Shown: positions 20,442-59,187 of the stretch, in pieces
How positions within the stretch are numbered: the stretch's first letter is position 1
Layout: the number at the start of each line of letters is the position of its first letter
Assembly (NCBI GenBank): GCA_951406725.2
Contig: OX597830.1
Span: 21,948,001 to 22,012,000 of the forward strand
DNA from: Octopus vulgaris
Lineage: Eukaryota
Direction of reading: 5' to 3'
Length of the DNA: 64,000 nucleotides
Position numbers and translations under genes: made by a program
Notes under the pieces: generated by a model
What the model saw: the letters and a program-made list of their open reading frames with translations, nothing else
What the model was told of the DNA's origin: nothing
The model's database searches: none

Positions 20442-23400
20442 CATGTGTCTGTGTGCATTTTATTGTGTCACTATAAATATATAAGGTGCTTAGTCTAGTG
20501 ATTAGGGGTTGCACCCATCATCATAAGATTGTGATTACAATAAAAAACATTTTATCTCATGTCGCTTTGTGATCACTTTGACACCTGATATGTGGCACCT
20601 GTACAGGTAATGCCAACATTATGGAGACAGTGAGCTAATCTACAGCACATACATTTGATCACTAGAAACAGATAATTTTGTGCAGGTTATTCAGTAAGAA
20701 ACTGCAGAACCCTCTGTCTCAGACTTGATACTACCATAATTATATCATATTATACAAGACCCCCTTCAAAAATTAATGACAATGGGATTACACCTAGAAA
20801 GTTCTCCTCCGGGCAAGGTTGTTTATGGAAGACCAGTAGTCGCCCATGCATACCAGCCACTCCTCTCCACACCGCCAATGTTATCCAAGGGAAAGGCAAA
20901 GGGGCAGATACAGCTTGGCACCAGTGACATCACAACTTATTTCTAAAGCTGAGTGAAGTAAGCAATGTGAAATAGTGTCTTGCTCAAGAACACAACACAC
21001 AACCTAGTCTGGGAATCAAACTTACTACCTCATCATTGTGAGCCTAACACTCTAACCACTGAGCCATGTGCCTTCAGACACACACACACACACACACATG
21101 AACCATAGTCATTATTTGCAAGTGAGTATGACACTAGTAGAATGTACCATGCTTTTGCTAATTGCGTTAGATTGTCATTGTAGATCTGAGCATACATAGA
21201 CACCCCCTTATCCCTTCAACCAGCAGAACATTGTGGATGTGACAGCTGAAGAGAGGGATAGGGCTGCACCAGTATTAGACTGGTACTCATTTACAAGGTT
21301 TCAGTCAGCCTAGGGCTGTAGTTGGAGACACTTGCCCAAGGTACCTTGTAGTGGGATTGAACCCAAAGCCATGTGGTTGGGAAGCAAACTTCTTACCACA
21401 CAGCCATACATACGAATTAAAAAGAAAAAAAACATTCTTGAGCAATGATCACCACTCCAATCCTATTCGACAGCACTCAACTCCACTTCGCTCCACTTAC
21501 CATCTTCACAGTAATAACTGTGCCATTGAATTTGGTCTGGTTGAGATGACGGATGCAGTTGTTTGCGTCTTCAGTTGAAGCCATAATCACAAAACCATAA
21601 CAGCGACGACTTGGAATCCGTGCAGTTGTCACAACTTTGGCAGCAACAACCTGGAAAAAAAAAACAATTGAGAAAAACCAAAGTTAGAAAACCCACCATC
21701 ATTGACAAAAGGTGGTTATAAGGTGACGAAAGAGATTAAATGAGACAATTGTTCATTTTGCATACATTTTACAAGCACAGGGGTGGCCATCCATACACTC
21801 TGAGTGGCCACACCTGTGCTTTGAATGTAGAGTTCAGTTGTTTTTCTAAAATAGAGTACTGGTGTGACATAAAAACCACTCAGTCTACTCTGCAAAGTGG
21901 TTGGTGTTAGGAAGGGTATCCAGCTGTAAAAACCACGCCAAAAGAAACAGTGAAGCATGGTGCAGTCTTCTGCCTAGCCAGACCCTGTCAAACCATCCAA
22001 CCCATACCAGCATGGAAAGCAGACATTAAATGATGATGATGATAATGAGAGTTACTTAATCCAGCATCTTCATCTTAACGCTATGGTACTACATTACCAT
22101 CATCAGTTAACATTCATTTTCTGTGCTGGTATGGGTTGAATGAGTCGACAATGCCATATCATTTTACAGAGCTAAGCTGGTGTAGGCTGGATGATTCAAC
22201 AGAAGCTGGTGAACTGGTGGACTGTACCAAGCTTCAATGTCTGCTTTGGCATAGTTTCTTCATCTGGATGCTCTTCCTAATGCCAACCACTTCACAGAGT
22301 ATACTGGGTGCTTTTTATATGGCATCAGCACCAGTGAAGTCACCAACTAACTTGCAAGACAAGACCCCTCGATACTGAGTAGTATGGAGCGAGGCGGCTT
22401 TATGCCAGGTAATATCATCATCATCCATCACTTTGAATCCGGGTTTTGTCCCTGTTAACAGGGGTGGCTGGATCTACCTCAATACCATACAACTGCCCTC
22501 ACACCATCTCACTATCTTGCCCAGTTTTGGGTGTGCTCCCTTCTCAAGCCAACCCTCCCAATCTTCTCCTCCACATGTCCTCTTCACATTTTCCTCAGTC
22601 TACCTCACTCTCGCTGTCCATTTACCTCAAAATCTAGCACCCTCTTCAGAACATGCTCAGCGGGGCTCTGAAAGGGATCTCAGGGAGTAGCATCCCAGCC
22701 ATCCTGAACTAGTTTTCCATCAAATTTCTTAAAAATCATGGTAGGGGCTTTGTTCTCGGGACCACTGATGTCTAGAAACTGAGGTTGGCTGTAAGCAAGG
22801 GCATGCTCCCCATAGAAAATCCAGCTACGAAAAAGTCTCATGATAATAGCAAAGGAGGTAATGAGAAGTTTAAATATGATAGAGAGACAAGAACAGATGT
22901 CTAGCCAAAAAAGAGATACATGGTTTCCCCCCCATTGGAGAAGAGAGAAGATGGTGGTGAAGACTATATGATCCAATTTTACAAATCTAAGCCATTTACA
23001 TGAAATTTTAAAACTGAATGTGAAGCAGATAAAATATTTATATTTTTAATTTAAATAATTTACAAACCCATCCATGTTTGACAAACAGTGCTTTGAGATT
23101 TGCAGCTTTGGTATTGGCTTTGAGTCCAGTAATCCACAAATTACAAGTTTTGGCAGATTCTACAAAGGAAAAAAAAAGAAAAAAGAATTTTGGTTTAATA
23201 ATCTATCTTATAATTTCATTATAATTTCAAAAATATTTAACCCTTTAAAACTCAATGCAACTGGTAAAAGTCTAAATGTTGTTCACAGTAAAATCTGAAA
23301 TTATTTTTTGTATAATTTCCATTCCAGTTTAACATATTGAATAGTTGTATGTAGTAGTCAATATTAAACATGTAGCAGTGCTCATATCTGTAGATTTGAA

Positions 23401-26400
23401 GGGAAATTAAAAAGGTTTAAATGTTGTGGCTGCATGGTTAAGAAAGCTTGCTTTGCAACCATGTGGTTTTGGGTTCAGACCTGCAGTGCGACACCTTGGA
23501 CAAGTGTCTTCTACTACAACCCTAGGCCAGCCAATGCTTTGCAAGCGAATTTGTTAAATAGAAACTTTGTGAAAGCCCATCGTGTATGTGCATGTGTGTG
23601 TGTGCGCGCGCCTGTGTGTGTCTTAATATTTGCCACCCCACTACCACTCAACAACTGCTGTTGGTTTGTTTATGGCCATGTAACTTAAGTGTTCAGCAAA
23701 AGAGAGCAATAGCAAAAGTAGCAGACTTCAAAATAAGTACTGAGGTTGATTTGTTAAACTAAACACCTCACAGCAGTGCCCCAGCATGGTCGCAGTCCAA
23801 TGACGAAAATAAGAGAAGATAAAAAGAAGATCAGTTTCAAGTTTTCCATGATGAGATGAATTGCTGGGATCTGCAATCCAGTGTCTTTCCATTTGTCACA
23901 TTAAGATATCCTCATATCATCCGTGAAAGCCAATTAGATGCTTATTTTATTTGTTATTATATTTACGGAGGTGTACTTGCATAGCAAGTGATTTGATCTG
24001 AGATCGTGTGCTGAAACGTAAACAATTGCAGCGTGGAAGGTGTTTGTAAGCCATTTAAGAAACACACAAAAGCCGTTCAATTCACTTCAACATTTAAGTT
24101 TATTTTGTCAGTGAACAGGTCGCGGATTTTAGCGACAAAAATATTTTGACAAAATAAACTTAAATGTTGAAGTGAATTGAACGGCTTTTGTGTGTTTCTT
24201 AAATGGCTTACAAACACCTTCCATGCTGCAACTGTGTTATATTATATTATATATATTATTATATTTGTGTGAAAGCGCATGGCTCAGTGGTTAGAGTGTC
24301 GAGCTTACGATCGTGAGGTTCAGAGTTCAATTCCAAGACTGGGCTGCGTGTTGTGTTCTTGAGCAAGACACTTTATTTCACGTTGCTCCTGTTCACTCAG
24401 CTGTAGAAATGAGTTGCGACGTCACGGGTGCCAAGCTGTATCGGCCTTTACCTTTCCATTAGATAACATTGGTGGTACAGAGAGGGAGGCTGGTATGCAT
24501 GGATGACGGCTGGTCTTCCATAAATAGCCTTGCCCAGACTTGTGCCTCGGGGGGGAAACTTACTTGGTCATTCATGACCAAAGGGGGTCTCCTCCTCAAT
24601 TATATTCTACATGGGAACTGGAAAACCAGTGCTATGAGTCCTAAGACATATGACTGGTGTGCAGGAAATGATGATGATGATGGCTGGTGATAAGGAGGGA
24701 TGTAGAGGCTATCAAGAAAATCGTCATGGGCTCACAAGGCTAACCCATGCTTTAGCAGGAAAAATGGCCTTAAAACACTTGCTTTTTTCACAGCATGTAG
24801 TAACTAAAGTAGTGCTGGATTAACAATTAATCAAAATAAGGACCTGCTTAGGGCATCGAGGGAAGAGAACACCACAGAAATGGTAAATGGTTTACAGCAC
24901 AAAAGAAATCACTTTAAACTTGCTAAAATAATATTAAGGATGCCTTATCTCTACTAAGTGTAGAAGCAGATGTGTTACACAAGATTAATCTTGAGGATCT
25001 GATCAAAGACTCTGCAATTTAAAAAAAAGTAGAAAACCTTTCAAATATAAATAAAGTGGAAGCACACAAAAATAAAGATTATTTTCCACCTTACTGTTAG
25101 TTTTGTTTCATTTTGAAGAATGAAAATTTATTTTATGGTTTATCATTGTTTATATTTTGAATTACATATATATGAGAGGCACCAAAATCTTGTAAGTGCC
25201 AAGGGCCTCTCTTGGGTTTTAATCCACCTCTGAACTAAAACCAGTATTCTTTTATTCTTTTATTTGCTTCAGTCGTTTGGCTGTGGCCATGCTGGAGCAC
25301 CACCTTTTAGTCGAACAAATTGACTTTTTCTTTGTAAGCCTAGTACTTATTCTATCAGACTCTTTTGCCGAACCGCTAAGTTACAGGAGATGTAAACACA
25401 CCAGCATCGGTTGTCAAGCGATGGTGGGGGCACAAATACAAACACATACATACGACAGGCTTCTTTCAGTTTCCGTCTACTAAATCCACTCACAAGGCTC
25501 TGGTTGGCTCGAGGCTATAGTAGGAGACACTTGCCCAAGGTGCCAGGCAGTGGGACTGAACCCAGAACCATGTAGTTGGTAAACAAGCTACTTACCACAC
25601 AGCCACTCCTGCACCTAAGATTTGGACCTAAAAGATTATAACAATGTATATGGTAAGAGAACAAAGGATTCTTACTTGGTGGTTTACCCTTCTTTGTTTT
25701 AGATGTGTCTTCAGAACTGGAAAAAAAAAAAAACAGAAATATCACATTAGAATATTGACAAATCCAGGCAATATATCCAACATAAAATTATTACGTGTGA
25801 CATATCACAAGCAGTAAAACAGTTAGAATATTTACATGTGATGTATGAATTACAGACAATACAACATGGTTAGGATATTGCTACATGTGACATCATCATC
25901 ATTTAAGGTTCACTTCTCCATGCCTGCATGGGCCAGATGGAATTTATTGAGGAAGATTTTCTTCTACAGCTGAGTACCTTTCATGTCATCAACCCTCATC
26001 AGTTTCCAGGCAAGATAATATTTCTCAATGGGCAAACATGTTTTTCGTGGAAGACTGGAGACAAACAACACTGCTTGTATGATGATGCTCATTTGCAATC
26101 ATCACATGATGACAAAACAAGAATATAAACACACACATACGTACATGTGAGTGTGTATATAGTACACTTATTATTATTAATAATGGTAATGGTATCTATT
26201 TAACTTTTATATTGTGCGGTGCAGTACTGTACTGTACTATACTATATTATATTATGTTATATTATATTATATTATATTATATTATATTATATTATATTAT
26301 ATTATATATATACAATGGGCTTCTTTCAGTTTCTGTCTATCAAATCCACTCACAAGGCTTTAGTCAGGCTGGGGCTATAACAGAAGACACTTGCATAAGA

Positions 26401-29400
26401 TACCTTGCAGTAGGACTGAACCTTGTAGCCATGCGGTTCAGAAATTTGCTTCTCAACTACACATCCACGCTAGGAAAAGGGACGGGACTATTAGAGAAAG
26501 AGGACAGAGTTATTAAGAGAAGGGAGCAGGGCTCCTGGAAAAAGAGGACAAAAATATGTAAAGAATCCAATAATAAACTTCACCTTTTGGTCTTGACATC
26601 TTTATTATCTTTCTTCTGTTCAACCTTCTTATCCGTCTTTTGGTCTTTCTGGCTTTTAGCACCAGCATCAGCTTCAGTAGTGCTGACAGTGGTGGACGTT
26701 TTGCCATTTGCTTGCTCACTTTTCTTTTCATTTGTCGCTAAATCAGCATCCAGGTCATTGTGGATGTCATCAACGAGTACAATTAACGACTCGTTCTCTT
26801 CAGATTTTGCAGCTGTTTTCAGCAGCGAAGACTTGTTAATGACTTTCGAAGCGTTAGACGCTGCATCTGGCTCTGAAGTACTTTGGTTTAAGTTATTGTT
26901 ATTTTTGTTTTCTGGCTTTTCTGACACCTGATCTGAAGAAGAACCATTGCTGGCCTCTTTAGAACCAGCATCTTCAAGCTTGCTTTCCATCTGTCCTGCA
27001 GGGTCACTGGTCACTGAAGAAGAATTATTGGTGTCTACGGTTTGATCTTTACTCTCAGCCTTGATCCCTGACTCCACTTTGTCTCCAGTGTTCAACTCTT
27101 CCTAAACAATATACAAACAATTGTACGCATTAAGAGCACTACTCAACACATGCATGTAAAGAGATGGAGATTGGAGATGGAGTGTGGAGATGACGGTGTC
27201 TATAATTGTATCATTTTGTTTCCAATACTTGTTTCTTTGTCTCCTCTATAATCAATTCTGTAAATATCCTACTGGCTTTGTAATTTGTCCTTGCAATATG
27301 CCCTCGTCCATGGCCCTTGCAGTCAAGAAAAGGAAATATTATTGTTGCTGTTGTTGTTATTGAAGGCAGTGAGCTAACAGAATCTTCGGTGTGTCAAATA
27401 AAATACTATGCAAACATTTCTTCAGGCTCTTTATGTTCTAACTTACTACTTGTACTTGTGGCGACATTCACCCTGGGCGGGTTGAGTCGGCTTCTTCTAC
27501 CGAGTAGTGTCAGAGCTATGCCGTCGGGAACTTCGGTTCTTGGTAGGGCCACCTAAGGAGGATTGGTCTGACACCGAGTGGTACTAGGATCACAACCCGG
27601 CAGACGGGGCTCTGGTGAAAATCCTCGGAGTGTCTGTTTTGGCAACCGGCAGCTCCTCGGTCGTTCTGTCCCTGCGACTGCGGACAATCTGCAGCAAACA
27701 GGATGTCTCTACATATTCCCACGAAACTTCTTCTTTATGTTCTAAGTTTAAATGCCACTGAGATCAACTTTGCTTCTCGTTCCATCAGGGCCAATAAGAT
27801 AAATACGAGTTAAGCACTAGTAATCAACTAGTTCTCTACTCCCAAAATTTGATACTTTGTACCTATAGCACAAAGAATTATTATGAGTGTTAAAACAGAA
27901 TCATTAAAGTATCAGAGTAAACAAAAAAATGCCTTGTAGTATTTGCTCTGGTTTTTCGCCTTCTGAGTTCAAATCTGAGCAAGGTAAACATTGCATTTGC
28001 CAAGGTCAGCTTTGCCTTTCATCCTTTCAGGGGTCAAAAAAAATAAGTATCAACTGAGCACTGGGGTCGTGTCAATATAATCAACTAAACCCCTTGCTCG
28101 AATTTGCTGGCCTTGCACCAAAATTTGAAACTATTATTATTATTATTATTATTATTAAGGCATAGATCTGGTAGAATCGTTACTGTGCTGGGCAAAATGC
28201 TTAGAAGTATTTCATCCATCTCTAGGTCCTGAGTTCAAATTCCACCAAGGTCAACTTTGCCTTTCATCCTTTTGAGGTCGATAAAATAAGCACCAGTTGA
28301 GTACTAGGGTCAATGTAATCAACTTATCCCCTCCCCTGAAATTACTGGCCTTGTGTCAAAATTTGAAACCATCATCATCATCACAACAATAATAATGTTA
28401 CTATCATATTAGCAATATTATTATTATTATATTGATAATTTTTACTTGTCACAAGGCTGCAAATTTAGAGGAAAAAACAGTCATTCAAATCAACCCAATG
28501 CTTTACTGATATTTATTTAATCAACTAAAAAACCTTTTTTTTAATTCTGGCTGGATTTGAACTCTGATGGTAAAAGAGGATAACTAAATACTGCAAGACA
28601 TTTATTCCACCACTACTACCACCACCAAAAACAACAATAACAACAACACTAATCTAAGGCAATGTAAGAATCTAATGGCTGTGAAATTAGAGTAGGTTGA
28701 CTGCAGGTAACAGTCATCTCCTGATTTCTAGTTCTACTACTACTTCTACCACCACCACCTCCTCCTCTTCAAATATACTGATGCCTTGAACCAACAAGGA
28801 AGTCTCTATGTGGTCAATCAACCAATTAGAAGTGGTATCCAAATCTTCCTCCAATCTAAAATAAGGAAAGGACACGAAGAACAGACACTTCTGGATACTC
28901 CCAAAAAGACAAGGATGGCCATGGATGGAATGTCACTGGTCGCAAGTCTGCTTAATCAAGTTTGATCTAGAGCTAAATAGCAAAAAAAAAAAAAACCTCA
29001 CACATGTCACAAGTGAGCAGAAAAGACATCCAGCTGTCAGAAAAAACAATTTGTCAATCCACCAATGTTATAACAAGTGGCAAGTAAATTACTGAATCAG
29101 AAAAAATGCAGGATAAAAACAGAAAAATTTTCAAATTATCTACACTGACCTTCTTTTCAGCCACGTTTACAGATTCCTCTAGAAAAAAAAAAAGAAAGAA
29201 AAATGCTTTAGAAATATGATACAAAAAAATTTAACAGTTTTGTTGTTTGCTGAAATTTACTCCCTTCATTTTCGAAAATAACAAAGGATTTTTTAGTAAA
29301 ATAACTTTGTTGTTAATTCATTATTAAGCTGGAACATAAGCAGTCATGAAGTTTTTATTTAACCTTTTAGCATTCAGGCCATTCGGTCAAATGCAACACT

Positions 29401-31230
29401 TACTTATTCATTCACATTATTTTGAATTAATCAAGCGTTATCTCAAAGCTTCAAGAAGATTATGATGATGTGATTGTTTATTTCTAGAATGACATTGTAG
29501 AGCAGGTGCGAGAAGCCAAATTTGGCCAGTTTGAACACAAAACAAGTAGAAAATTGGGGCTGGATATGGTCAGTTTAAATGCCATAGCAGGGAACCAGAG
29601 GCAGTCTCAGGCAGTTTGGTTCCAAAACCCAGATGACGCAGGCTTGATTACATGAGAATTTACTTTCAAAAGTAAATTAACAACACATCATCATCATCAT
29701 CCAGTGTTTTAAATCCAAGTTTTCTCCCTGTTAACAGGGGTGGCCAGATCTACCTCAATGCCATAGCAACCAAGGTAGGCAGGTGCAGCCCACCCCAACC
29801 TTTAGGTTGGCTGGTGCCCATTCTCCTTTGCTATCATGAGGCTTTTTTTGGAGCTGGATTTTCTACGGGGAGCATTGTCTTACTTACCCACAACCTCAGT
29901 TTCTAGACATGAGTGGTCCTGAGACCAAGGCCTCTACCACAATTTTTAAGAAATGTGGTGGAAAACTAGCTCAGGAAGGCAAGGATAATAACACCAAAAA
30001 TATATTATCATAAAAGAGATTCTTACGTCCTTTTGTTTTCTTGTCATCTGAATTGGCAGGACTGAAAAATAAAAATTTTACTCCATGACATCACCATTCA
30101 TTAATATTATTATTATCATAATCTTCATAACAACAATCATGCAGGGGCACCACCTTGAAGGGTTTTAGCTCATCAAATCGACCCCCAATGCTTATTCTAT
30201 CAATTTCTTTTGTGACTGCTAAATCATAGAGACATAGGTATGGCTGTGTGGTAAGAAGCTTGCTTCCCAACCACATGGTCCTGGGTTCAGTCATACTTGA
30301 GCAAGTGTCTTCTATTACAGCCTTGGGCTGACCACAGCCTTGTGAGTGAATTTGGTAGACAGAAACTGAAGAAGCCAGTTGTATATACATATATATGTGT
30401 GTGTGTGTGTGTTTGTCTTTCACCATGGCTTGACAACTGGTGGTGTTGTGCTTACAGCCCTGTAATTTAGCAGCTCAGCAAAATACACTGGGAGGGTACC
30501 AGGTTTAAAAAAATGAAAATACTAGGAGGTCGATTCATTTGACTAAAAAGTCTTCAAGGTGGTGCTCCAGCATGGCCACAGTCTAATGACTGAAACAAAT
30601 ACAAGATAAAAGATAAACCAAAAGCAGTTGTCAAGCAGAGATGAGGGACAAACACACACATACATACATATATAACAGACGACAGAGATAGAAAATGGAA
30701 TACACAAGAAATTTTATTGTTCACAATGATCACTTCAACACATTCTGCATCGATAACCTCGCAGGTAGGAAACTATACAACTAGTGGTGGTGCATCCCTC
30801 AGTGTAGAAGTGTCTCATCAGGAGACGTAATCCAATAAAAACTGTGCAATTATCATGGATGACACCAGGTAGTCATAGGGAGAGAATATGCTTTATTGGC
30901 ATACTACTAGGAACAAACCCAACACTTAAATATTAACTTACATATTAACTTACATATTAACTTATACTTAAATATTAACTTATACACCTACACACAGTTT
31001 CTGGCTTTAAGGGTATTGTGAAAAGCCTAGTTGGAGGCCCAACCTTCTGATTTCGTTTACAGGGCCCAGAAAAACTAAAGGACCACTGCAATAAGTGTTT
31101 GAATCTGAGAGAGGAATATGTTGAATAAAATCATAATTAACTGATCCTCCTGTATTTTCTTTTGTTTAAAGCCAGAATCTTTTCAGCACCCTTTCGTGTG
31201 TATGTATGTATGTATGTGTATGTATGTATG

Positions 31231-31273
<43 letters not shown>

Positions 31274-31442
31274 TATGAAGTACCATGGAAACCAAACCAA
31301 TTCTGATCGTGAGGAAATTTTACTTTGCTTTGAAACAAGTGGGGATTGGTGAAAGGAAAGGCATCTAACTGTAGAAAATCTGCCCTAACAAATTCTCTCC
31401 AATCAGTTTGAACAAGGAAAAAATGGACATTAAAACAATGAT

Positions 31443-31476
<34 letters not shown>

Positions 31477-34400
31477 GTCATCCCATAAATAATGTGGTTT
31501 TTTCAAATGCATGAACTAAAACTCTGATGGACACGGGATAAACTACCTGCATCAACTCGCTATGAAAGCAGTTGTACTTATTGTTAGTGCAAGTTTTAAA
31601 AAGGCAGATCGATTTTGACAGTTATTTTTTCAAAGCTATAATGGAAATGACAAAGGAGCATATTTGGCATATTTTGTTTTATGAGTTCAACAAAGGCAAC
31701 AACACAACAGAAAGTGTGAGGAATATTAATGCAGTATATGGGGATCAGATAATAAGTGCAAACCAGTGTCAATGGTGGTTCCAGAAATTCTGAGCCTGAA
31801 ACTACAACCTACAAGACGAACATCGTCCTGGAAAATCTGCAGAGCTCAATGAGGATGTCCTGTAACCCCTGGTGGAACAAAATCCCATTGTAACTACTGA
31901 GGAACTAGCAGAGAAGCTTGGATTTGGTCATTCAACCATTGACTGACACCTGTGTGCCATCGGAAAACTCAACAAATTGGATCAATGGGTTCCTCACAAA
32001 CTTTCCAAGTCTAATCTTGTGCAGAGAGTGAATGTGTGTTCTCCTTTGCTGTTATGTCTCACGAATGAACATTTTCTTGGACCGAATAGTGACTGGTGAT
32101 GAGAAATGAGTTCTCTATAAAAATGTCAAGTGCCAAAGACAGTGGGTAGGAAAAGGAGAAACACCAGCACCCCAAGCTAAAGAAGGTCTTCACCCATATA
32201 AGGTGTTGTTGGATATGAAAGGTTTAGTCTATTTTGAACTTTTAAACTTAAACCAAAAGATAACAAAGGAGATCTACAGCAAGCAGCTTGAGTAGCTAAA
32301 GTCAGCACTAGAAGAAAAACGACCATCTTTGGTTTCAAGATGAAAGATGCCCTTCCTTCAGGATAGTGCTCAGCCACATACAGCAAGGATAGGATTCCAG
32401 AGGCTGGAGCAGTTTGAATAGGAAATGATACCCCACCCACCATATTCATTGGACATTGCCCCATCTGATTATCATTTATTCTACACTCTTCAAAATCATT
32501 TGAACAGAAAAAACATGAATTTTGTAGTTGAGGTCAGAACAGTACTGGAGGAGTATTTTCCATTACGGGCAAGTGAATTCTGGAAGAGGGGCCTTGCAAG
32601 TCTACCAGATAGATGGAAGAGCATTGTAGAAAATGGAGGAGAGTATATTTTGGATAAAAAAAGAACTTTGTTTATATTGATTTTTAAAAATAAAAGAAGT
32701 ATAAACAAACTGTATTATTTATGGGATGACCCAATATATATATATACATAACCAAAATGTGTTTGAACTGCTAGCAACTCACCACCAGCATATAACTTGA
32801 AGCGAAAAGAAAATGTAAATCTGGTAACTTTTGAAGCATGTTGTGGTGACAGAACTGTTTAACCACTTCTAATTAAAATCCTGACATAATCTTAATCCTT
32901 ACATAGCTTTCATACCTACATTCCTACAATAAACTACTTTGGTTTTGAAGCAGAACAATGCCAATTGTCATTGAACCATAGGAACCAAATACATGTTACT
33001 GGAATATATTTATTCTGGATTAATTGAACCATATGAACTAAATACATGTTATTAGAATACCTTATCAATTCTAGATTCTATTAAAAACTGAGAGATTAAG
33101 TAAATTCCGTAAGATATTTAACCTGTTGTCATTTTCAGGACTTTTGTCAACTCAGCATAATCTTTTTTACTATAGGCACAAGGCTTGAAATTCTGGGGGA
33201 GGGGGCTAGTCGATAACCTGAACTCAGGTGCTTGACTGGTTTATATTTTATCAACCCTGAAAGGATGAGAGACAAAATCAACATCTACAACAATTGAATT
33301 CAGAATGTAAAGAGGGAAGAAATGCCACTAAGATTCTGTCAGCTCACTTCTTCGTCATCATCATCACCACCACCACCACGTTCGGATGGTGATTTTTACG
33401 TGCCACCAGCACAGGTATCACAACTACAATCTCCATTTGATTTTGATTTTTGATGTTGATGTACTTGACTCAATAGGTCTCCTCAAGCACAGCAGGTCGC
33501 CCTACAATCCAAGGTAAGCACAGCTTGGAATGTTTTTTTCTATTCACATTGTTTTGAATTATTCATACATTATCTCAAAGCATTGAGATTTTTATCATTT
33601 AACTGAGGACTGGCGAACCAGCTGGCTGATCTGGCAGAGTTTTTACAGCTGGATGCCCTTCCTAACACTAACCACTCCGAGAGTGTAGTGGGTGCCTTAC
33701 GTGCCACCGGCACAAGGGCCAGTCTGGCAATGGCTACACTCAAATGGTGTTCTTTATGTGCCACCCGCACAGGAGTCAATACAACAGGCTTCTTTGAGTT
33801 TCTGTCTACCCAATCCACTCACAATGCTTTGGTCAGCCCGAGGCTACAGTAGAAGACACTTGGCCAAGGTGGCAAGTAGTGGGACTGAACCCAGAACCAT
33901 GTGGTTGGGAAATAAGCTTCTTACCACACAGCCACAACCCACAAATCATGAAAGGCAAAACAGGATTCGAATGGAGAACACACAGAACTGGAACAGATAC
34001 TACAAGACAATTAAAGCAGGTACTCTACAAAAAGAACAAGAACAAGGAAGAGAAGGAAAAAAGAACAAGAGGAGGAGGGAAAAGAAAAAAGAGAACAAAA
34101 AAGAAGCAAAGTCCATCCTCTCCTCACCGTGGTGGGGACGCTGGCAACGAGTAGTGTCAGAGCTATGCCGTAAGGAACTTTGGTTCCTGGTAGGGCCACC
34201 CAAGGCGGATTGGTCTGACACCGAGTGGTATTAGGGCCACAACCCGGCAGACAGGGCTCTGGTGAAAATCCTCGGAGTGTCTGCTTTGGCAACCGGCGGC
34301 TCCTCGGTCGTTCTGTCCCTGCGTCTGCAGACAATCTGCGGCAAACAGGATGTCTCTACATGTGGGATTGTTGGGGACCGCTTATGAAATCCACATATTC

Positions 34401-34564
34401 CCACAAAACTTCCTCCAACTTCTACGAGATACCTCGAGGGTGGTAGAAGAAGCCGACTCAACCCGCCCAGGATGAATGTCGCCACAAGTAAGGAGGAGGA
34501 AGATATATTGAAATAGTGAGTAAGGGAACATGGGTAGTTGCAGTAACCAACCACAAAACCCAAC

Positions 34565-34601
<37 letters not shown>

Positions 34602-37600
34602 CAATACCTTTTGGTCTTTCCTTCTTTACTGTCTCTCTTCTGCTCAGTTTTCTGGATTTTAGCAGGGGTGGCACCTTCAGTGGTATTCGTAGTGATGCCC
34701 TTTTTGCCACCGGCCAGCTGTTTAATTTTCTTTCCGCTTGCAGTTAAATCAGCATCCAGGTCGTTAGGGATATCATCATCAAGTACAATTATTGACTCGT
34801 TCTCTTCTGATTTCACTGCTGTTATTCAAGAATGGAAAGCCCTGGTTAATAATTTTCAATGCAATGGTAGGTAATAGTGTGTGTTGGTGGCGGTGGCAGG
34901 GTGTTTGTGATGAATAGTAGTGTATTGGTTGTAGTAATGCAGGTGGTAGAATACTGGTGGATGGTAGTGTGTAGGTGATAGTTGTATATTGGCAGTAGTG
35001 GAGTGGTGGTGGTGGTAGTAATAGTAGAGTAGTTGTGGGTGGTCCTGTACAGGTAAAAATAGTGGTGGTGGTGGTAGCGTGTTGGTGGTAGTAAAGTGTT
35101 AGTTGGTATTAGTTTATTTGTGGTTGAATTGTGTTAGTAGAAGTAGAAGGTTGGTGGTGAATGATAGTGTATTGGTTGTAGTAGTGGCTGTGGTAGTATG
35201 ATGAGAATGCAAGTGTGGTGGTGGTGATGTATTATTGCATAGTAGTGGTAGAAGTGTGTTGATGGTAGTGTGAAACAAGTGGTAATAATGTGTTGGTAGT
35301 GGTACAAAATAAGCAGCTGTAGCGAAAGAGATGGGAGATCAGATAAGAACAGGAGAAAGAAAGAGAGAGGGGGTAAGTAGCCCCAACACACACAACCTGT
35401 ATGTAGTTACTCAACCTGCTAGAAATAGCAGCCATTTCTCGATCAAATCATACTCTACCATCTTGAAAAAAAAAAGAGGACACATTGAATAATGCAGACC
35501 AAAATATTCTTAAAAGGACAACATGATACTGGGTGGAATACTTTTGATTACAGGGAAGCTCAATCAAGACTAATTAACAGTAACTAGTTAGCAACTGTGG
35601 TTTACAATTTCAACACAAGGCCTACAGTTTTGAAGGGTCTAGGGTAACATGATACCACTGATCCTAGAACATAACTGCAACTTTATTTTATCAACCCCAG
35701 GAAGGCGGAGAGTAAAGATGACCCCAGCAGAATTTGAACTTGGAACACTAAGTCTGCCTCATCATCAACATTTAATATCCACTTTTCCATGCTTGCATGA
35801 GTCAGAGAGGAACTTTTTAAGGCAGATTTTCTATGCTAGATGCCCTTCCTTTTCACTAGCCCTCACCTGTTTCCAAGCAAGACAATACTTCCCCATGGCT
35901 AGACATGTTCTCACAGAATACTGGAAATGAATGCAACTGCTCGAATGGAAAATGACATTCATTTACAACTTTCACATGATGTCAATACAAGGAGAGTCAA
36001 GCATCCACACACTTACACACGCATATATACATACATGTGTATATGTGTTAAGTGATGAAATAGAAGAGGTGAGCAGTTATGCATATCTTGGTCAAGAAGT
36101 GACTATGAGGCATGAGATGGAGAATGAGATCTCGCGAAGGGTAAGAGCAGGATGGAGAGCATTCAACTCAATGAAGGATGTGCTGAAGGCAAACCTAGAC
36201 AAGGCAAGTTGCGCCAACCTCTTCAACAGTACAGTCTTGCCTGCAATGCTATGTGCATGAGAGACTTGGGCCTTGACTAAGAGAGAACAACAACATCTGC
36301 TTATGGCGCAGAGAGCCATGGAAAGGTCAATGCTGGGAATTTCGCTAAGAGATCACATCCAGAATGAAATCAAAGGCAGAACTGGAATGAAGGACATCAT
36401 CGCAGAATACCACCATGCAAAGAAGCTATGACAGACTGGTCATGTCGCAGGTTCACAGATAATCAGTGTACCTGTGCCGTTGTCAAGTGGTACCTGCGCG
36501 AGCAGAAGAGACCACTCGGAAGACTGCCAATCAGGTGGAAAGATGTTTGGAGCAACATGGAGGAGAATGGCAAGAGCACAAGGGGAACGTAGCAAATGCT
36601 GTGGCCAGCAGATCCAACTCAGCGACAACAGCCTGGCTGATCCAGGTGATGTTTGTGTGTGTGTGTGCATATTTTTTTATATATTACTCAGTATCAACAT
36701 ACTAATTGGTGGACAAACCTAGGATTTATAAATTGGACTGGTGACAGCTTGTTAGGTTTGGATTACTTGGATTCCATCTAACAAAGGATAAATTCGGTAG
36801 CCTCAGGTATCTACCTGTACTGAGAGCTTATTAAGTTTTTTGCCTGGATTATCAATTCCTCTATGTATATATATATATACACACACAAAAGGTTTCTTTC
36901 AGTTTCCATCAACCAAATCCACTCACAAGACTTTGGTTAGGTTGGGACTTATAGTAGAAGACACATGCCCAAGTTGTCACAAGGCATTTTGGTCGATGCC
37001 AAACAATTCTGCCAGCGCATCAGCTTATAGTAAACAATAATTGTAACAATACATCCGAGATACAAACATTTGATCTTTTGCACTGGTTATCCCGACCAGT
37101 ACCTCATCAAGCTCTGGCCAACACCCCACCAAACTCTGGCCAAGACTCCACCAAGATTTCAACCAAACTGTAACAATTAAAAACCAACAAACCTAAGGAT
37201 TCAGCAGTGCCATCTTTCTTTGGTAGCTGTACAACGAAAGAGAAAGTAGAGGTCAGTTAAGAGGTGGAGAGTAAAATGTTCAGATCATTGGAACAATATA
37301 AGACAGCGGATAAAATGAAGTCTTTGTCTTCACAGATGTGCAGAGAAGTGTATGAATAGGATGAAGTCTTTAACAGGAATTTTTTTTTTTGGGGGGGGGG
37401 GTTTATACACACCTTGCAACATGTATGTATATAGTCTGTTTATAGAAACATCAAAACTGAGGTGTTTTTGTAAGTTTAATAGTTTGAACAAGAATAATGT
37501 CATTAAGTAAACAAAAGAGCCCTGTGAGATCATTCGATCTGCTAGAAATAGCAGCCAAATACCTTTCTAATTACACTCTAGAAACTTAGAAAATGTAGTC

Positions 37601-40600
37601 CTAGATAGGCAGTGCTTAATATGGTTACGGCTGGAACACCTTCAACCAAAGGTTTACTTAGTGTTAAACTGGAGTTGAATTACAAAATCAAAGTAAAGAT
37701 CTGCAAGCCATGAAAAGGAGGAGACTCAAGAGTAAACATGTCATCATCTGCTTACAGTTAATGAAATGCTCGTTAGTTATACGTATCACTTGTTAGACTG
37801 GATCCAATCCATTGAGAGTTAACTGTTTTTGCCAGACAGCAAAACACCAGTGTTGGAATACAAACCAACCGACTCTTTGACCAGAAAGGCCGGAACCCTA
37901 TCAATACAAACTGCTTACACTCAGACAATATACTAGACCTGTCACCTAGTTTAACGCCATCAACACCTGGTATTTGTGCACTTTTAACTCTTTTGTTACC
38001 TTATTTCAGTTGAAATACACAGCCTTTCTTTCAATTAATTTTGAAAACAAGAATTTAATAAAATAACTATCATTATAAAGTGTGTGTTTGGAACATGAAA
38101 CTTAGGTGGGAGGCTTAAACTTAGATCCCTTTAATCTTTTTGCTGCCATATCTCTGTTGAAAAACAGTAATTCCTCGCCATACCACAGTGCACCTGTCAT
38201 GGTTCACCTATTGCCGTTTATTATTTCAGCTTACACCAATTCCTCTGTGATGTTGTTTTGCATTTATAATAAAATAAATATATACAAATTATAATGTACA
38301 GTACAGTTTCTACTTCATGGATTTTCACCTATCGCGAAGGATTTTGGAACTTAACACCCATGATAGTTGAGAGATTACTGTACGCTGCCTTTGTTTCAAT
38401 TTTGAAAATAATGAAGAATTTATTAAAATGACGTTATTTAAATGGTATTTAAAATATAACGAGATTGTTGGATAATATCAACTCAGCTGGCCATGCTTGG
38501 GAATCCAGCCAGAAAGTGTAAAAACGGTTGCTTTTGATAGGACCCAAAGGAGGAGTTGCTCAAGGACTCTATCCTCACAACCCTCCCAAGAATAGTGGGA
38601 GAAGAAGATGATGGGTGGATGAAATTTTGATGGAAGGTTTCACAGAATCCAAGGGCAGTTTCAGGCAGGTAGGTATCAAAATGTTAAAAAAAAAAGGAAG
38701 TTTATTTCATAGAACCAGAAGTAGTCTCAAGAGGATTGGTATCAAAAGGATGTTAACCAGGGTCTATGTATTTACTACCATTTGGTACTGGCTCTCAATT
38801 CTTTTCATGCCCATACTTTTCATACTGTTAGCATTCAAACTGGACATCAACTGCTCCAATCTAATAAGATCATGAATACTTCTCCTCCTCTACTGATTAA
38901 ATTATAATCTAACCCTTTAGCATTCAGATCATTCAGTCAAATGTAGTGCCTTTTCATTCATATTGTTTTCAATTAATCATGCATTATATATAGCTTCGAA
39001 ATTTTGATACTGTGGTTGTATATTTTATAATGGCACTGAAGAGTAAGTACAATAGGCTGGGTAGAGCATAGCACAGGTAGCATATTTGGGCCAGATATGG
39101 ACAGTGTAAATGCTCGGGGATTAAATAAAAAAAAGAATGACAAGAGATTGGTGTATAATACTTGGAGAATGTTGAATAACCTCTTTTAGGATTGACTATA
39201 GACACTTATAAAGACATAAAAGGTGGTAGATAAGGCATGGCCTAAAGTAGATTCATATTTATGTATTTTTCTTTTTGAGTTTTTTACTTAAACGTATTCA
39301 AAATGAAAGATTAGATGATTTCCTTAACCTAGTTTCTCCTTTTTTTAACAAATGCTGGCATGAAGCTTGCTTTGCAGTAACATGGTTTCAGGTTCAATCC
39401 CACTACACAGCATCTTGGACAAGTTGTTTTCTACTGTGTCCCTGGGCGAAACAGTGCCTTATGAATGAATTTAGTAGATAGAAACAGTGTGAAAGCCTGT
39501 TGTGCGCGTGTGTGTGTGTGTGTGTGTGTGTAAATGTGTCTTTATGTTTGTATTTGTCTTCTCACTGTCAGACAACCAGTGTTGGTTTATTTATGGCTGT
39601 GACTTAGCAGTTCAACAAAAAAGAGAACGATAAGTGTTGGGTAGATCTGTTCAACTAAACCCTTGAAGGCAGCATGGTCACAGCCCCATAAGTAAAACAA
39701 GTAAAAGATAACAAACAAACCCACTTCACATTCACTTAAACTTTGTCCAATCCAAACCAGACACAATTCTCTTTCATTGTACACTGCAAAGTAAGCAGAA
39801 GTGCATGGCTTCAGCATTTGATGGCATTTCAACAAGCGCTCAATTGCTTTGTATCTCTGTGCCACCATCACACACAGCATCATTAGTGAAGCTATACTCT
39901 CATCTGTCAAGTGTCAATTTGGCCCTGACAACTCTGGTTCTCAACCAATTAAAGCATTTCCACTTTGTCCAGCTTACATCAACTGGTAGCTGTTACATGC
40001 TACAATTTCCATTATTGTTGAGGGTGTTTGCCTGCTATTTTTTGTTCTAAGGTATCGACTTCAAAGGGAGTGATACATTAACATGTTAAGCACCACATCT
40101 ACCATCAGTGGTTCATCACAAAATTCACACAACCACCATATGCACCACCACTGATACATTTTCATGATTTTAAAAAATATTTTACTCTGTATCTTTGACA
40201 TGGTTTCAAGGATATTTAACCCATTCATTACCAACCCGGCTGAAACCAACTCTGGCTCTGAGTACAAATGTCTTGTTTTCATAAGTTTTGAATTAAAATC
40301 TTCCACCAAACCATAGTCACAATTTATGTTCCTAACACTAGCTGAATGATAACCAAGTAATTTTACTAAATTCTTTGTTATATTTAAAGCAATTGAAAGA
40401 AACACAGAGCATCTCAAAATAAATACAGTAACAAAAGGGTTAAATAACATGATGCTAAATATTAAAGTTTACTTGTGAAATATTATAAAAAAATTTTTTT
40501 AAATGACATTTCTTCATAGTTAAACAATATGCAGCATGATCAGAAATGTGTGGCATCACCAGTAAGTTCCAGTAACAGGCCATGGTGGTTAACATGTTAA

Positions 40601-43600
40601 AAGAAGATTTTCATTGACATCAGGCAACATTATTGGCTTGAACATATGACCTCATTCATCTATTTACTGCCACTAACACTATTTCACAGTGGTTGCTGAT
40701 CAAACACCTACCAGAATATAAAAGCTATCAGCGTCTGATATCCTAAAACAGCTATGGCCAAGGGTTTAGTTGTACAGATCTACCCCTCACTTACTTTTTT
40801 CTTTTTTGCTGAACTGCTAAGTTACAGAGCCATAAACAAACCAACACTGGTTGTCTGGCAGTGGGGAGACAAGCACAAACATAAAAACACATTTACGTAT
40901 ACACATACATACATACAACAGGCTTCCACACAGTTTCTGTCTACTAAATTCATTCATAAGGCACTGTTTGGCCCAGGGACATAGTTGAAAACACTTACCC
41001 AAGATGCTGTATAGTGGGATTGAACCTGGTAAGAAGTATTAAGAGCTAAATCTAGCTTTTAGAGCAGTGGTTCTCAAATGAGGTTGATATAAGATTATTG
41101 GGGGTCCACACAAGTGAAATAGTAAATTGGATCTACAGAAGTATTTTAAGGGTCCATAAAAAAAACTTTTCTTTTCATCATCATCATCATTTAACGTCCG
41201 CTTTCCATGCTAGCATGGGTTGGACGGTTCAACTGGGGTCTGGGAAGTCCGAAGGCTGCACCAGGCCAGTCAGATCTGGCAGTGTTTCTACAGCTGGATG
41301 CCCTTCCTAACGCCAACCACTCCGTGAGTGTAATGGGTGCTTTTTAGATGTATTTATTGCAAGAAACAGCCAAGTTTCTTTCTCTGATGTTTTACATAAC
41401 TCAACCTAAACACGTGAGTGTGTAATAAACAAAATAGGAATTCTTGAAAGAAACATCTCTAAAGCTAAATACTAAATGGCTATGGGGGTCCACCAGAATA
41501 AAATAGTAATCAAAGGGGTCCATGGGTGAAAAGTGGTTGAGAACCACTGATTTAGAGGAATGAGTTGAATATAATGACTAGACATAAAAATGTTTGGCTT
41601 AGTGAGATTAACATAAAAATGTTTGGCAGGAGAGATTAACAATGTTGGTAGAGGTATCTTATGTGGATAAATGATACATAATTGATACTGTGAGGTTGTG
41701 ATGGAGGTGGAAAATACCCATGTGAAAGGTAGACTAATGTGTCTTGGGGAAAATTTAGACCATTTTTGAAAATGCTTGGCTCCACAGATGATGATGATGA
41801 TGACCTGATTCAGGATTTAGAAACATGCAAAGATGAAGTAATGAGGGAGACTCCACATGGTACTCCACCCTGCTAGTAATAGCAGCTAAATCTCCTTCAA
41901 ATCACATCCCACCATCTAAAAAGGCTGGAAGAAAACATTGTGTGATATAGTCCCGATTATACTATACCTGAAAAAAGAAAATGAAAAAGGAAAAAGATGA
42001 ATGATCCTCGCTGAAATGCTTTTGGTCATAAATCTGCTGGATTAGGAAAGGCATGGGATTAAACAACAACAATACACAGGGATATTGTGATGCACCAATC
42101 CAACTTGTTTAGGACATGAAAAAAATATAAACATTAAATCAATGACGATAATAACAATGATGATAATGAATAGACTGACTATGTTGGTATTCTTGAAACT
42201 GGCCTCAAGGGCAGCAATATTTCAATAGGGTTTTTGGTTGGTTGTTTTGAGGGGAATTTTTAACAGCTTTTGAGAGAAGCTGATATAAATGTAGTAGTTA
42301 TTTATCCACCAAATGGAAGTGAGTGAGGTACCTTAATGTGAGGTACCTCAAATCATGTACATCTGCTCGTGAGCAGAGGTACATCATTTCTTCTACAAAA
42401 TAAAACTTTATACTTTGATACCGCTGCCGACGACCGAGAACTCGCCGCTTCGTGCCTCGTCGATAACACACGGACACACACGCTCGTGGTCTTTTTTCCT
42501 GGCCGACTACTACTCAGACTTACTCCCCGCCGACCGACCGGCCGCACTCATGCTTGATACCGCTGCCAACGACCGAGAACTTGCCGCTTCGTGCCTCGTC
42601 GATAACACACGGACACACACGCTCGTGGTCTTTTTTCCTGGCCGACTACTACTCAGACTTACTCCCCGCCGACCGACCGCACTCATGCTTGATACCGCTG
42701 CCAACGACCGAGAACACGCCGCTTCATGCCTCGTCGATAACACACGGACACACATGCTCGTGGTCTTTTTTCCTGGCTGACTAGCTGACTACTACTCAGA
42801 CTTACTCCCCGCCGACCAACCGGCGCACTCGTGCTCGATACCACTGCCGACGACCGAGAACTCGCCAGAACAAAATAAAACTTTTTAAAATATTACAGTG
42901 ATCAAAACCAAGAAGGTAAAACTATAGACTGACTTTACCTTCTCAGTATTACAAACATCTTCCAAAGCAGTGGTAGTCACCATATTTTCCTCTGGGGTCA
43001 TTTTACTCAAATTGTTTTTGTTTTCTACCTTCACAGACACTTGGCCAACAGTGCTGGCCTCTTTGGAACTGTTACCATTGCTGGTGTCATCAAGCTTAAC
43101 TTCCATTGGTTCCACAGGGTCACTGGTCATTGTAGAAGAATTATTGGCATCTACGACAACTTCATCTCCAGTTTTCAACACTTCCTAAACAATATATAAA
43201 CAATTCCATACATTTATAGCTCTATCCAACACATGCTTATATATATATATAGCCATCAACACCACAACCACCATCAGCAGTTTCATATCCATTGTCTATG
43301 TTCTCATGGTCTTTCACAGATATTAGCTTAGCAAATAATTGGAGACCTACTCAAACCCTTTAGCACTCAGATTACTGTCAAATGTAATTTTTATTTATTC
43401 CCATTGTTTTGAATTAATCATACATTATCTCATAGCTTTGAGAGTTTGATTAATGTGATTGTTTATTTTTAGAATGATATCGTTGGGTAGGTGTAAGAGG
43501 CTGGATCTAGCCAGACTGAACATAAAACAAATAGAACAATTTGGGTCACATACGGCCAATTTAAATGCTAAAGGGTTAATACCAGTAATCCCTCAGCTGG

Positions 43601-50220: not shown

Positions 50221-52247
50221 CCTTTCTACATTAGGCATGAGACCTGAAAGTTTGAGGAGAGGGGTATGTTGATTGCATCAACCCTAGTATTCAACTGGTA
50301 CAGTTATCTTATTGACCCCAAAAGGATGAAAGGGAAAAAAATCAACCTCAACGAAATTTGAACTCATAATGTAAAACCAGAAGAAATGTTGCTGAACATT
50401 TTACAATAACAATAATAATCCTCTCTTCCATAGACTCAAGGCCTGAAATTTTGGTGGGAAGGGCTAATCGAACCCCCCCCCCCCAGTACTTTAGTGGTAT
50501 TATTTTATCAATGCCGAGGTTGACTTTGCCTTTCACCCTTTCAGAGGTCAATAAATTAAGCACCAGTTGCATTTTGGGATCAATCTAATTGACTGGCCCC
50601 ACTCCCCACAAATTTCAGGCATTGTGTCTATAGTAGAAAGGATTATTTTATCAATGCTAAAAGGATGAAAGGCAAAGTCAACCTCAGTGGAATTTGAACT
50701 CAGAACACAAAAACAGGTGAAATGCCACAAAGCATTTTGCCCAGTGTGCTAACAATTCTGCCAGCTTGCTACCTTTTTTTTTTTTTTTTTTTTTTTTTTG
50801 CAATAATAATAATAATAACCTTTCTACTATAGGTACAAGGCCTGAAATTTCAGGAGAGAGGACTAGTTGATTATACTGACCCCATTGATCAACTGGTACT
50901 TATTTTATTGACCTTGAAAGGATGAAGGGCAAAGTTGACCCTGGCAGAATTTGAACTCGGCACGTAAAGACAGACAAAATACCGCTAAGCAGTTTGCCCA
51001 CCATGCTAATGATTCTTTTCTACTCTAGGCACAAGGCCCGAAATTTTGGGGGAGGGGTACCAGTTGATTAGACTAACCCCAGTACACAACTGGTACTAAT
51101 TTATCGACCCTGAAAGGATGAAAGGCAAAGTCAACCTCAGCGGAATTTGAACTCAGAACATAAAGACAGACGAAATACCGCTAAGCATTTTGCCCAGCAT
51201 GCCAATGATTCTGCCAGCTTACCGCCTTTGCACTAATAATAACAACAATAAGCTATACTCACCACACTTTCAGCCATATTTGAATTGTCTACAAAAGAAA
51301 AAGAGGGAATAAAGAAAAACTTTTAAAAGCTTGAAAATGAAATATCTGAACAAACATTGTTACTTTCAAATAAACAGTAAGTTATAAACTCTTGAAAAGG
51401 TTGTTTCCTGATTTTCCACTCCACTACAGACAAATTACATTGGTCAATAAGTATTTTTCATCAAGCATATGTCAAGGTATACTCAGTGTAGTTTTTAATG
51501 CTGATTTCAAATACACAATTAGTTTTTTTTTGACATCACGTACAGTTTTCATGAGAAATTTTTTGTTTTGGTTTTAGCTCATGTGTGGAGGCGCATGGCT
51601 TAGTAGTTAGGGTGCCAGCATTATGATCGTAAGATTGTGGTTTCGATTCCTGGACTGGGCAACACGTTGTGTCCTTGAGCAAAACACTTTATTTCACATT
51701 GCTCCAGTCCACTCAGCTGGCAAACATGAGTAACGCTGTGATGGACTGGTGTCCCGTCCAGCTGGGGAACACATACGCCACAGAAACCGGGGCCCATGAG
51801 CCTGGCTAGACTTTAAAAGGGCGCACTTATTATTTATTTTTAGCTCATGCATTATATAGAGCTTCCAGTTGATGACATATATGCATGTATTACATTTACA
51901 TCATGGAAACATACCTTTAAAATAAACTGCATTATTCATTGCTGCATAGTTCAGAGGCAATATTTCATCATCTTAAATCAACCAATCAAAGTTTTGTCTG
52001 ATGAAATAGGTATTTCAACATCTTAAATTGTCGTCATAATTGGTCTGATGAAATATCTCATCAAATTCAATATAAGTGTAGACGCAGGAGTGGCTGTGTG
52101 GTAAGTAGCTTGCTTACCAACCACATGGTTCCAGGCTCAGTCCCACTGCATGGCACCTTGGGCAAGTGTCTTCTACTATAGCCTCGGGCCGATCAAAGCC
52201 GTGTGAGTGGGTTTGGTAGACAGAAACTGAAAGAAGCCCGTCGTGTG

Positions 52248-58804: not shown

Positions 58805-59187
58805 CTGTAAGGATAAAGAAGAATCAAAAATCTAATTGTTATTTTTTGTTTATTTAATATCTGTAATTTAATTGAAGTTAACTTTGATTAAAGTTAATTA
58901 AGACAGACCAGTGATAGATTTAGAGTGAGAAGTATACATGTTTGAAAACAATGGACATTGGCAGAAGGGAGAAAGGAAGAGTTAAGGGTAATCAAGAAAT
59001 ACACTGAAGATTGTAGGTTAGCAATATGCAGGCTCATGCAAAGCTGGTTATAGGTCCATGCCAGATGTGAGATGTAGATCTCATGTCAAAAGATAACAGG
59101 CCAAGACAAGATGTGAACTCCAATTTCACACTGCCCATCAAGTGTTTTAATACTCAGTGCTAAATATAGGATTTACATACGAGTCAC

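What the first reader, a model, noticed from the sequence alone, without database searches (positions are those of the whole stretch)
34808..42976. Exon fusion or fission caught in the act: intron tail of copy A equals coding sequence of copy B
Seen: three exons in module A (246+34+211 nt) correspond to one 518-nt exon in module B. The intron just upstream of A's acceptor (minus: gcattgaaaattattaaccagggctttccattcttgaataacag|CAGTGAAATCA, 34819-34862) aligns with coding sequence of B (GCTTCGAAAGTCATTAACAAGTCTTCGCTGCTGAAAACAGCTGCAAAATCT, ~26803-26852), with 4 extra nt in A. The segment 34851-34870 also matches 42957-42976, inside A's upstream exon, at 15/20 nt. Inference: either a microhomology-mediated ~8-kb deletion fused exon + intron tail + exon in B (exonisation), or an ancestral long exon was split in A by intronisation and recruitment of a new 34-nt micro-exon. 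Caveat: the 20-nt match abuts a TGGTAG-rich tract and could be chance.
Basis: partly seen in the sequence, partly recalled or inferred. Interest (0 to 1): 0.72.

Follow-up and report, generated by a model that had tools for sequence, protein, structure and literature searches.

The report
Exon fusion inside duplicated gene module
An animal gene for an RNA-binding protein carries an old internal duplication in which one copy keeps three exons and the other has one long exon, most likely because a deletion between two similar short sequences welded two exons together: a well-documented but known kind of gene-structure change.

Summary
The A3 intron tail aligns with B coding sequence (0 of 1000 shuffles as good), and contigs from 4 of 4 laid runs show B as one unbroken exon and A3 starting at 34818. 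The direction can be set. Six neighbouring SAFB-like paralogues have the exon chain X (225-243 nt), Y (34 nt), long exon L (487-601 nt), with the phases of A1, A2, A3. So three exons are most likely ancestral, the 34-nt exon is not new, and B is likely an in-frame deletion-fusion of X and L; its best crossover lies inside the 15/20 match. The intron tail matches paralogue coding sequence (P-F-A-L-K), so it is ex-coding DNA that became intron when A3's acceptor moved, not exonised intron. Weak point: A1/X and A2/Y share order, phase and length but no significant sequence. dS of about 1 between modules makes the event old, not 'in the act'. The mechanisms are known (imprecise intron loss, boundary shift). 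An earlier scan note described one paralogue of the cluster, not this fusion.

The parts
58753..58804 (-). Exon W1-like (52 nt, phase 0>1), single copy, upstream of the duplicated module
   Evidence: paralogue W1 is 52 nt in P3, P4, P7; DNA similarity marginal, 12-14 of 500 shuffles as high
51263..51288 (-). Module A first exon (26 nt, 1>0), counterpart of paralogue W2 (32 nt) and of 29178-29150
   Evidence: aligns with 29178-29150 including flanks
42939..43184 (-). A1 (246 nt, 0>0), positional counterpart of paralogue exon X (225-243 nt, 0>0); source of the 5' half of B; probably skippable in frame
   Evidence: upstream intron and exon align with B; a 41-nt A1-like piece in contigs of X1 and X16; no significant sequence match to X
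42957..42976 (-). Left arm of the 15/20 match (14-nt core 11/14): inferred left breakpoint region
37193..37226 (-). A2 (34 nt, 0>1), positional counterpart of paralogue exon Y (34 nt, 0>1); absent from module B
   Evidence: contigs of X6 and X19 both begin 35 nt upstream of A3; no significant sequence match to Y
34871..35314 (-). C/A/T-rich low-complexity tract (15 G in 444 nt) where the 5' part of long exon L would lie; no remnant of L detectable; stops in all three frames
34819..34870 (-). Intron tail = former coding sequence of L (matches paralogue P-F-A-L-K codons); holds the right arm of the 15/20 match, a branch-point-like TATTAAC (label recalled) and the present acceptor AG
34608..34818 (-). 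A3 (211 nt, 1>2): 3' part of long exon L, read from a shifted acceptor; same donor position as L
30027..30061 (-). Module A last exon (35 nt, 2>1), counterpart of paralogue t (35-41 nt)
29150..29178 (-). Module B first exon (29 nt, 1>0)
   Evidence: joint 27100>29149 in 4 of 4 runs
26584..27101 (-). B (518 nt, 0>2): fused exon, A1-like 5' half plus L-derived 3' half
26841..26853 (-). Inferred fusion junction in B (best crossover after B nt 249-252)
26812..26840 (-). Latent, unused counterpart of A3's acceptor inside B's coding sequence (CAG at the same aligned place)
   Evidence: contigs run through it without a gap
25676..25716 (-). Module B last exon (41 nt, 2>1), counterpart of paralogue t
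   Evidence: joint 25716>26584 in 4 of 4 runs
21501..23159 (-). Two RRM exons (23159-23068, 92 nt; 21650-21501, 150 nt); paralogues have 95 and 150 nt

Best explanation
Module A has three exons where module B has one, and B most likely arose after the internal duplication by an in-frame genomic deletion that joined exon X to the inside of long exon L, while A likely lost the 5' part of L by moving its acceptor. Steps: (1, shown) the block small exon / acidic exons / small exon is duplicated in tandem as a phase 1>1 unit. (2, inferred from paralogues) the ancestral block was W2, X, Y (34 nt), L, t. (3, inferred) in copy B a deletion of some 5-8 kb ran from a motif near the 3' end of X to a similar motif inside L; both motifs are read in the same frame (A-L-E-D and A-L-K), so the product stayed open and two introns, the 34-nt exon and L's 5' part were lost at once, probably by microhomology-guided break repair. 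(4, inferred) in copy A a latent 3' splice site inside L's coding sequence, in the phase that keeps the frame, replaced the old acceptor; about 50 nt of old coding sequence survive as intron tail and have since gained 4 nt. The protein effect is a length change in an acidic, low-complexity linker ahead of the RRM.
For: Paralogue chain W1 52 (0>1), W2 32 (1>0), X 225-243 (0>0), Y 34 (0>1), L 487-601 (1>2), t 35-41 (2>1), RRM 95 and 150 nt against the window's 52, 26, 246, 34, 211, 35 and RRM 92 and 150 nt with the same phases. Rough chance of the two inner phases, the 34-nt length and the X-like length together: about 1.5e-4 (a crude uniform model of my own). A3 and B are sisters against the 7 paralogues, 100/100, so B's state is the odd one. 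B starts at an A1-type acceptor (phase 0) and ends at L's donor (phase 2). Best crossover in B after nt 249-252, at A1 42972-42969 and A3-upstream 34862-34859, inside the 15/20 match; fixed-register chance of the 11/14 core 8.6e-5. The intron tail matches paralogue coding sequence. B keeps the ancestral frame across the segment and A is 4 nt longer. X-to-L distance in six paralogues 5.0-7.4 kb against 8.1 kb in A. Spliced contigs in 4 of 4 runs agree with the exon ends tested.
Against: A1 against X and A2 against Y show no significant protein similarity (92-374 of 500 shuffles as high for A1/X) and at best marginal DNA similarity (A1/X 11-159 of 500; A2/Y 110-203 of 500); paralogue exon profiles did not pick out A1 or A2 in the window. 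The paralogue exons are called from conserved splice sites and open frames, not from RNA. The paralogues are close kin of each other, so they count as about one outgroup. A1's tail resembles L's interior (A-L-E-D..N against A-L-K-D..N), and its donor flank matches A3's start at 8 of 10 nt, which leaves room for an L-derived A1. The register test is partly circular, because the shared 9-mer helps to set both alignments, and CTACCA occurs 9 times in the adjacent tract. The A3+B branch joins long branches (warning). The order of steps 3 and 4 is not fixed by the data.
Confidence: 0.72

Rival explanations
1. Same fusion in B, other order: L's acceptor had already shifted before the duplication, so the deletion pulled a once-coding intron tail back into an exon (coding, then intron, then coding again).
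For: A and B share changes in this segment that the paralogues lack (a 3-nt deletion and a longer spacer before S-E-E-N). B carries the same CAG and a similar upstream motif at the aligned place.
Against: B keeps the ancestral frame across the segment while A is 4 nt out; the shared 3-nt deletion is in frame, as expected of coding DNA. A ready-made acceptor inside B would compete and shift the frame, yet contigs run through it.
Confidence: 0.13
2. Fission: a fused X-L exon was ancestral to both modules; in A a short internal duplication (the 15/20 match) gave a new donor and a new acceptor, and a 34-nt exon was recruited to restore the frame.
For: A1's tail and donor flank resemble L's interior and A3's start; no significant A1/X or A2/Y similarity; intron gain by tandem duplication is on record (search listing: PMC4974935, PMC2891723).
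Against: It needs a fusion and then a re-split that restores the ancestral phases, an X-like length and exactly 34 nt (about 1.5e-4 by the crude estimate). Beyond 10 nt no remnant of L follows A1's donor (43 of 400 random GTRA starts score as high), and no third copy of the A1/B 5' half was found.
Confidence: 0.1
3. B lost the two introns by recombination with a spliced cDNA, or the deletion was blunt and the 15/20 match is chance.
For: cDNA-mediated loss removes adjacent introns together (PMC3020277, passages). The free-search significance of the match is modest (21 of 1000).
Against: A cDNA copy would keep the 34-nt exon and omit the intron tail; B lacks A2 (no alignment beyond noise) and holds the tail. 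The crossover falls inside the match.
Confidence: 0.05

Closest known systems
Imprecise intron loss by genomic deletion with microhomology (Farlow et al. 2011, PMC3020277; five passages read)
   Same: Introns removed by a deletion whose ends sit at short similar sequences away from the splice sites, with loss of flanking exon sequence.
   Different: The paper speaks of one intron at a time and 1-6 bp of identity. Here two introns, a 34-nt exon and part of a long exon go together, the arms are 14-20 nt of imperfect identity inside two coding exons, and the unfused sister copy survives in the same transcript.
Intron boundary movement and intronization (Roy 2009, PMC2740785; abstract and Results section 6 read)
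   Same: Exonic sequence becomes intron when a splice site inside the exon is used; the paper finds such changes rare (5 intronizations, at most 10 clear boundary moves, no de-intronization among 28,256 introns).
   Different: Most moves listed there are within 9-12 bp; A3's acceptor lies about 240-380 nt downstream of where the paralogue acceptor would be (194-338 nt of L ahead of the A-L-K motif, plus the 44-nt tail). No new intron is made; an old one is lengthened.
Intron gain by tandem genomic duplication (PMC4974935, PMC2891723; search listing and abstract starts only)
   Same: A duplicated stretch at both ends of an intervening sequence is its signature, and the 15/20 match looks like one.
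   Different: The paralogues show both introns and the middle exon as pre-existing, so this is not a gain.
SAFB family (SAFB1, SAFB2, SLTM; Ilik et al. 2024, PMC10901741; passages read)
   Same: Central RRM followed by an R/E/K-rich region; neighbouring paralogues carry SAP plus RRM with the same exon chain.
   Different: No SAP exon found for the window's gene; its RRM exon is 59% identical to the four closest paralogues; the acidic region is internally duplicated.

Membership tests
Imprecise intron loss by microhomology-guided deletion | Introns present in the ancestral state and absent in the derived copy | tested here: met
   Paralogue chain and sister module have both introns; orthology of X and Y rests on order, phase and length only.
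Imprecise intron loss by microhomology-guided deletion | Flanking exon sequence lost with the intron | tested here: met
   B lacks A1's last ~20 nt, A2 and L's 5' part.
Imprecise intron loss by microhomology-guided deletion | Short similar sequence at both breakpoints, kept once at the junction | tested here: inconclusive
   Crossover inside an 11/14 core, but the arms are imperfect today, free-search p is 0.005-0.02 and the register test is partly circular.
Intron boundary movement / intronization | Sequence now intronic is coding in outgroups | tested here: met
   Tail matches paralogue coding sequence and B.
Intron boundary movement / intronization | New boundary used in transcripts | tested here: met
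   Contigs of 4 of 4 runs stop at 34820.
Exonisation of intronic sequence | Captured sequence non-coding in the ancestor | tested here: not met
   It encodes P-F-A-L-K-like residues in the paralogues.
Intron gain by tandem duplication | Outgroups lack the intron | tested here: not met
   Paralogues have phase-0 and phase-1 introns around a 34-nt exon.
SAFB family | Central RRM | tested here: met
   PF00076, E 2.2e-7, over the cut-off; 59% identity to paralogue exons.
SAFB family | N-terminal SAP domain | tested here: inconclusive
   Found for six paralogues but not for this gene within ~63 kb upstream; contigs hold 23-107 unplaced letters upstream of the 52-nt exon if all predicted exons are included.
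SAFB family | ER-rich region after the RRM | tested here: inconclusive
   Exons 14646-14387 and 11522-11424 are 41% R+E+K, without clean ER dipeptide repeats.
SAFB family | Orthology to named SAFB proteins | not testable with these tools
Protein searches returned nothing; solved-structure hits are generic RRMs.

The most novel reading that the evidence does not exclude
A full round trip preserved in one transcript: coding sequence of a long exon was first turned into intron by a shifted acceptor, then brought back into coding use in the sister module by a deletion guided by two same-frame motifs. This would be a de-intronization by deletion, with the before and after states side by side, in a divergent member of an eight-gene SAFB-like cluster.
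Probability: 0.13. Interest if true: 0.55.

Novelty: new member of a known kind. Interest (0 to 1): 0.32.

Why it matters
Imprecise, deletion-type intron loss and long-range acceptor shifts are accepted but seldom seen with the ancestral state, both derived states and the junction all readable. Here one gene keeps the unfused and fused versions in tandem, and adjacent paralogues give the direction. It is a clear teaching case and a caution: intron-tail-equals-exon matches can be ex-coding DNA, not exonised intron. The change falls in a low-complexity acidic linker, so little effect on function is expected. The surrounding SAFB-like cluster may be of more interest than the fusion, since SAFB proteins suppress transposon exonisation in mammals and flies (PMC10901741, passages).

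Tried and rejected
My first reading was that B is ancestral, because six paralogues have one long exon around the E-E-N-E-S motif; I dropped it when searches showed exons X and Y upstream of that long exon. Protein searches gave nothing: exon B against longer proteins (0 of 2223 candidates), the RRM exon (0 of 6), exon B against cluster representatives (0) and the Atlas; no other species could be used as outgroup. No holder was on record as RNA; that blank is not used as evidence. Reads were laid on 25600-35950 only, so the A1>A2 and A2>A3 joints were not seen directly. A remnant of L after A1's donor: not significant beyond 10 nt. A remnant of L's 5' part or old acceptor upstream of A3, or a third A1/B-like copy: none. 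A pyrimidine-rich acceptor-like site near 35317 would give a 709-nt exon of the right phase but with four stops: rejected. A2 as a copy of t or W2: no similarity. A SAP exon for this gene: not found. Literature: 'octopus'+'SAFB' gave 2 unrelated papers, 'scaffold attachment factor'+'cephalopod' 0, a SAFB gene-structure search nothing pertinent among 15 of 21 listed. Four look-ups for two recalled papers on internal duplication and duplicate-gene structure found nothing held; they are not cited as evidence. No supplements were opened.
Full report
Observation. Fifteen predicted minus-strand exons from 58804 to 11424 join in one frame and include an RRM. The duplicated unit is larger than the finding: [26 nt, A1, A2, A3, 35 nt] and [29 nt, B, 41 nt], each entering and leaving in phase 1, with the small exons and their flanks alignable. 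A DNA search of the 2.8-Gb genome with B found only B, A3 and A1. The intron tail ahead of A3 aligns with B coding sequence: anchored score 14, reached by 0 of 1000 shuffles, by 2 of 1000 random YAG-ended 70-mers (the top one B's own site) and by none of the other 14 acceptors. The 15/20 match is as stated; alone it is modest (21 of 1000 shuffles for all of A1, 5 of 1000 for its last 60 nt).

Transcripts. Of 20 listed runs I laid 4, from three studies and two closely related organisms, on 25600-35950. They are not on record as RNA, but their contigs skip introns 25717-26583 and 27102-29149 with splice-type ends. In 4 of 4, one contig covers B without a gap and also covers A3 up to 34820; 67 letters lie between the pieces, as predicted for the two small exons. 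In X1 and X16 the same contig has a 41-letter piece that fits B at 26999, and A1 matches B there at 37/41, so A1 is in those contigs. In X6 and X19 the contig begins 35 letters ahead of A3. That is A2 plus one letter, the point where an isoform joining the 26-nt exon directly to A2 would merge; A1 skipping is thus inferred, not seen.

Direction. The RRM exon found four close paralogues on the same contig; 340 kb of neighbouring DNA showed seven (P1-P7), six with a SAP exon. Six have a long exon L of 487-601 nt that ends at the donor used by A3 and B. This first looked like support for fission. But L starts in phase 1, and upstream the paralogues carry X (225-243 nt, 0>0; 6 of 7) and Y (34 nt, 0>1; measured in P2, P3, P4, P5, P7; a profile hit in P6 not measured; none in P1), preceded by exons of 52 nt (P3, P4, P7; my pattern gave 55 in P5 and nothing in P1, P2, P6) and 32 nt (31 in P6), and followed by t (35-41 nt) and RRM exons of 95 and 150 nt. 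The window's gene reads 52, 26, 246, 34, 211, 35 with the same six phases, and RRM exons of 92 and 150. A crude estimate for the two inner phases, the 34 nt and the X-like length by chance is 1.5e-4. A3 and B are sisters to the exclusion of all seven paralogues (100/100, with a long-branch warning). The economical reading is that A keeps the ancestral chain and B is a derived X-L fusion. Against it: A1/X and A2/Y show no significant sequence similarity, the paralogue exons are called from DNA alone, and they amount to about one outgroup.

Junction. Treating B as a chimera of A1 and the A3-upstream sequence, the best crossover is after B nt 249-252 (26853-26850), at A1 42972-42969 and 34862-34859, inside the 15/20 match and in its register of 8106 nt. 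The 14-nt core is 11/14 (fixed-register chance 8.6e-5, partly circular; the 5' hexamer is common in the adjoining tract). Both arms are read in the same frame (A-L-E-D in A1, A-L-K in L), which explains why the fused exon is open. In six paralogues the matching points are 5.0-7.4 kb apart, so the lost piece was probably 5-8 kb. Microhomology-guided repair is inferred; Farlow et al. (PMC3020277, passages) propose it for imprecise intron loss. A cDNA route is unlikely, as B lacks A2 and contains the tail.

The intron tail. It matches the paralogues' coding sequence for P-F-A-L-K, so it was exon before it was intron. A3's acceptor aligns with a CAG inside B's coding sequence: a latent site, used in A and ignored in B. 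The rest of L's 5' part is not detectable in A; a G-poor low-complexity tract lies there. B keeps the ancestral frame through the segment and A is 4 nt longer, which favours B capturing it while still coding and A intronising it afterwards. The reverse order is not excluded and is the most novel reading; Roy (PMC2740785, abstract and section 6) found no de-intronization among 28,256 fungal introns.

Age. dS is 1.06 for A3/B and 0.93 for A1/B, with dN 0.22 and 0.42, while the second organism differs from the window at 3 of 517 letters of B and has the same structure. The event is old and both modules look constrained.

Identity. SAFB-like by the paralogues' SAP plus RRM order (family definition from PMC10901741, passages). 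No SAP exon was found for this gene, and no named orthologue was retrieved. That the animal is an octopus comes from earlier notes and my recall of its repeats; I did not test it. Three literature searches found no account of this gene or cluster, within a library that lacks most subscription papers. The scan's earlier notes hold one paralogue of the cluster and nothing like exon B.

Verdict. Real, well supported and polarised with fair confidence: a new member of known kinds of gene-structure change, in a linker region. Interest 0.32.

Noticed in passing
G000:C17:22,050,000-22,305,000 (L012-L038): Seven more SAFB-like genes follow the window's gene: four on the minus strand, three on the plus strand. 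P3, P4, P5, P7 have near-identical RRM exons; P2 and P6 have a divergent RRM. P1, P6 and P7 show stops or frameshifts in the exons examined.
   Followed up: partly
window 43184-42939: A1 is a 246-nt phase 0>0 exon that is probably skipped in some transcripts: two contigs from two organisms break exactly where that isoform would merge.
   Followed up: partly
L018/L022/L025/L038, ~100 nt upstream of long exon L: The intron ahead of L's acceptor and the 3' end of L are almost identical among paralogues whose other introns differ by 20-30%, which suggests gene conversion or a splicing element.
   Followed up: no
paralogue exons X and L: The end of X (T-L-D-T-N-K-E-T in P4) resembles the inside of L (T-L-E-D-T-I-N-M-D-T in P2): possibly an older internal duplication that supplied the two junction arms. 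Not tested for significance.
   Followed up: no
window 42440-42860: A G+C-rich tandem repeat of about 120-nt units begins some 70 nt after A1's donor.
   Followed up: no
window 47726-48651: Mariner-type transposase-like reading frames in the intron upstream of A1 (label recalled).
   Followed up: no
window 1371-1811: Gly/Ser-rich minus-strand frame ending in R-R-F, probably the last coding exon of the gene.
   Followed up: no
window 58805-64000 and L009-L014: No SAP exon was found for the window's gene, although it is expressed and spliced.
   Followed up: partly
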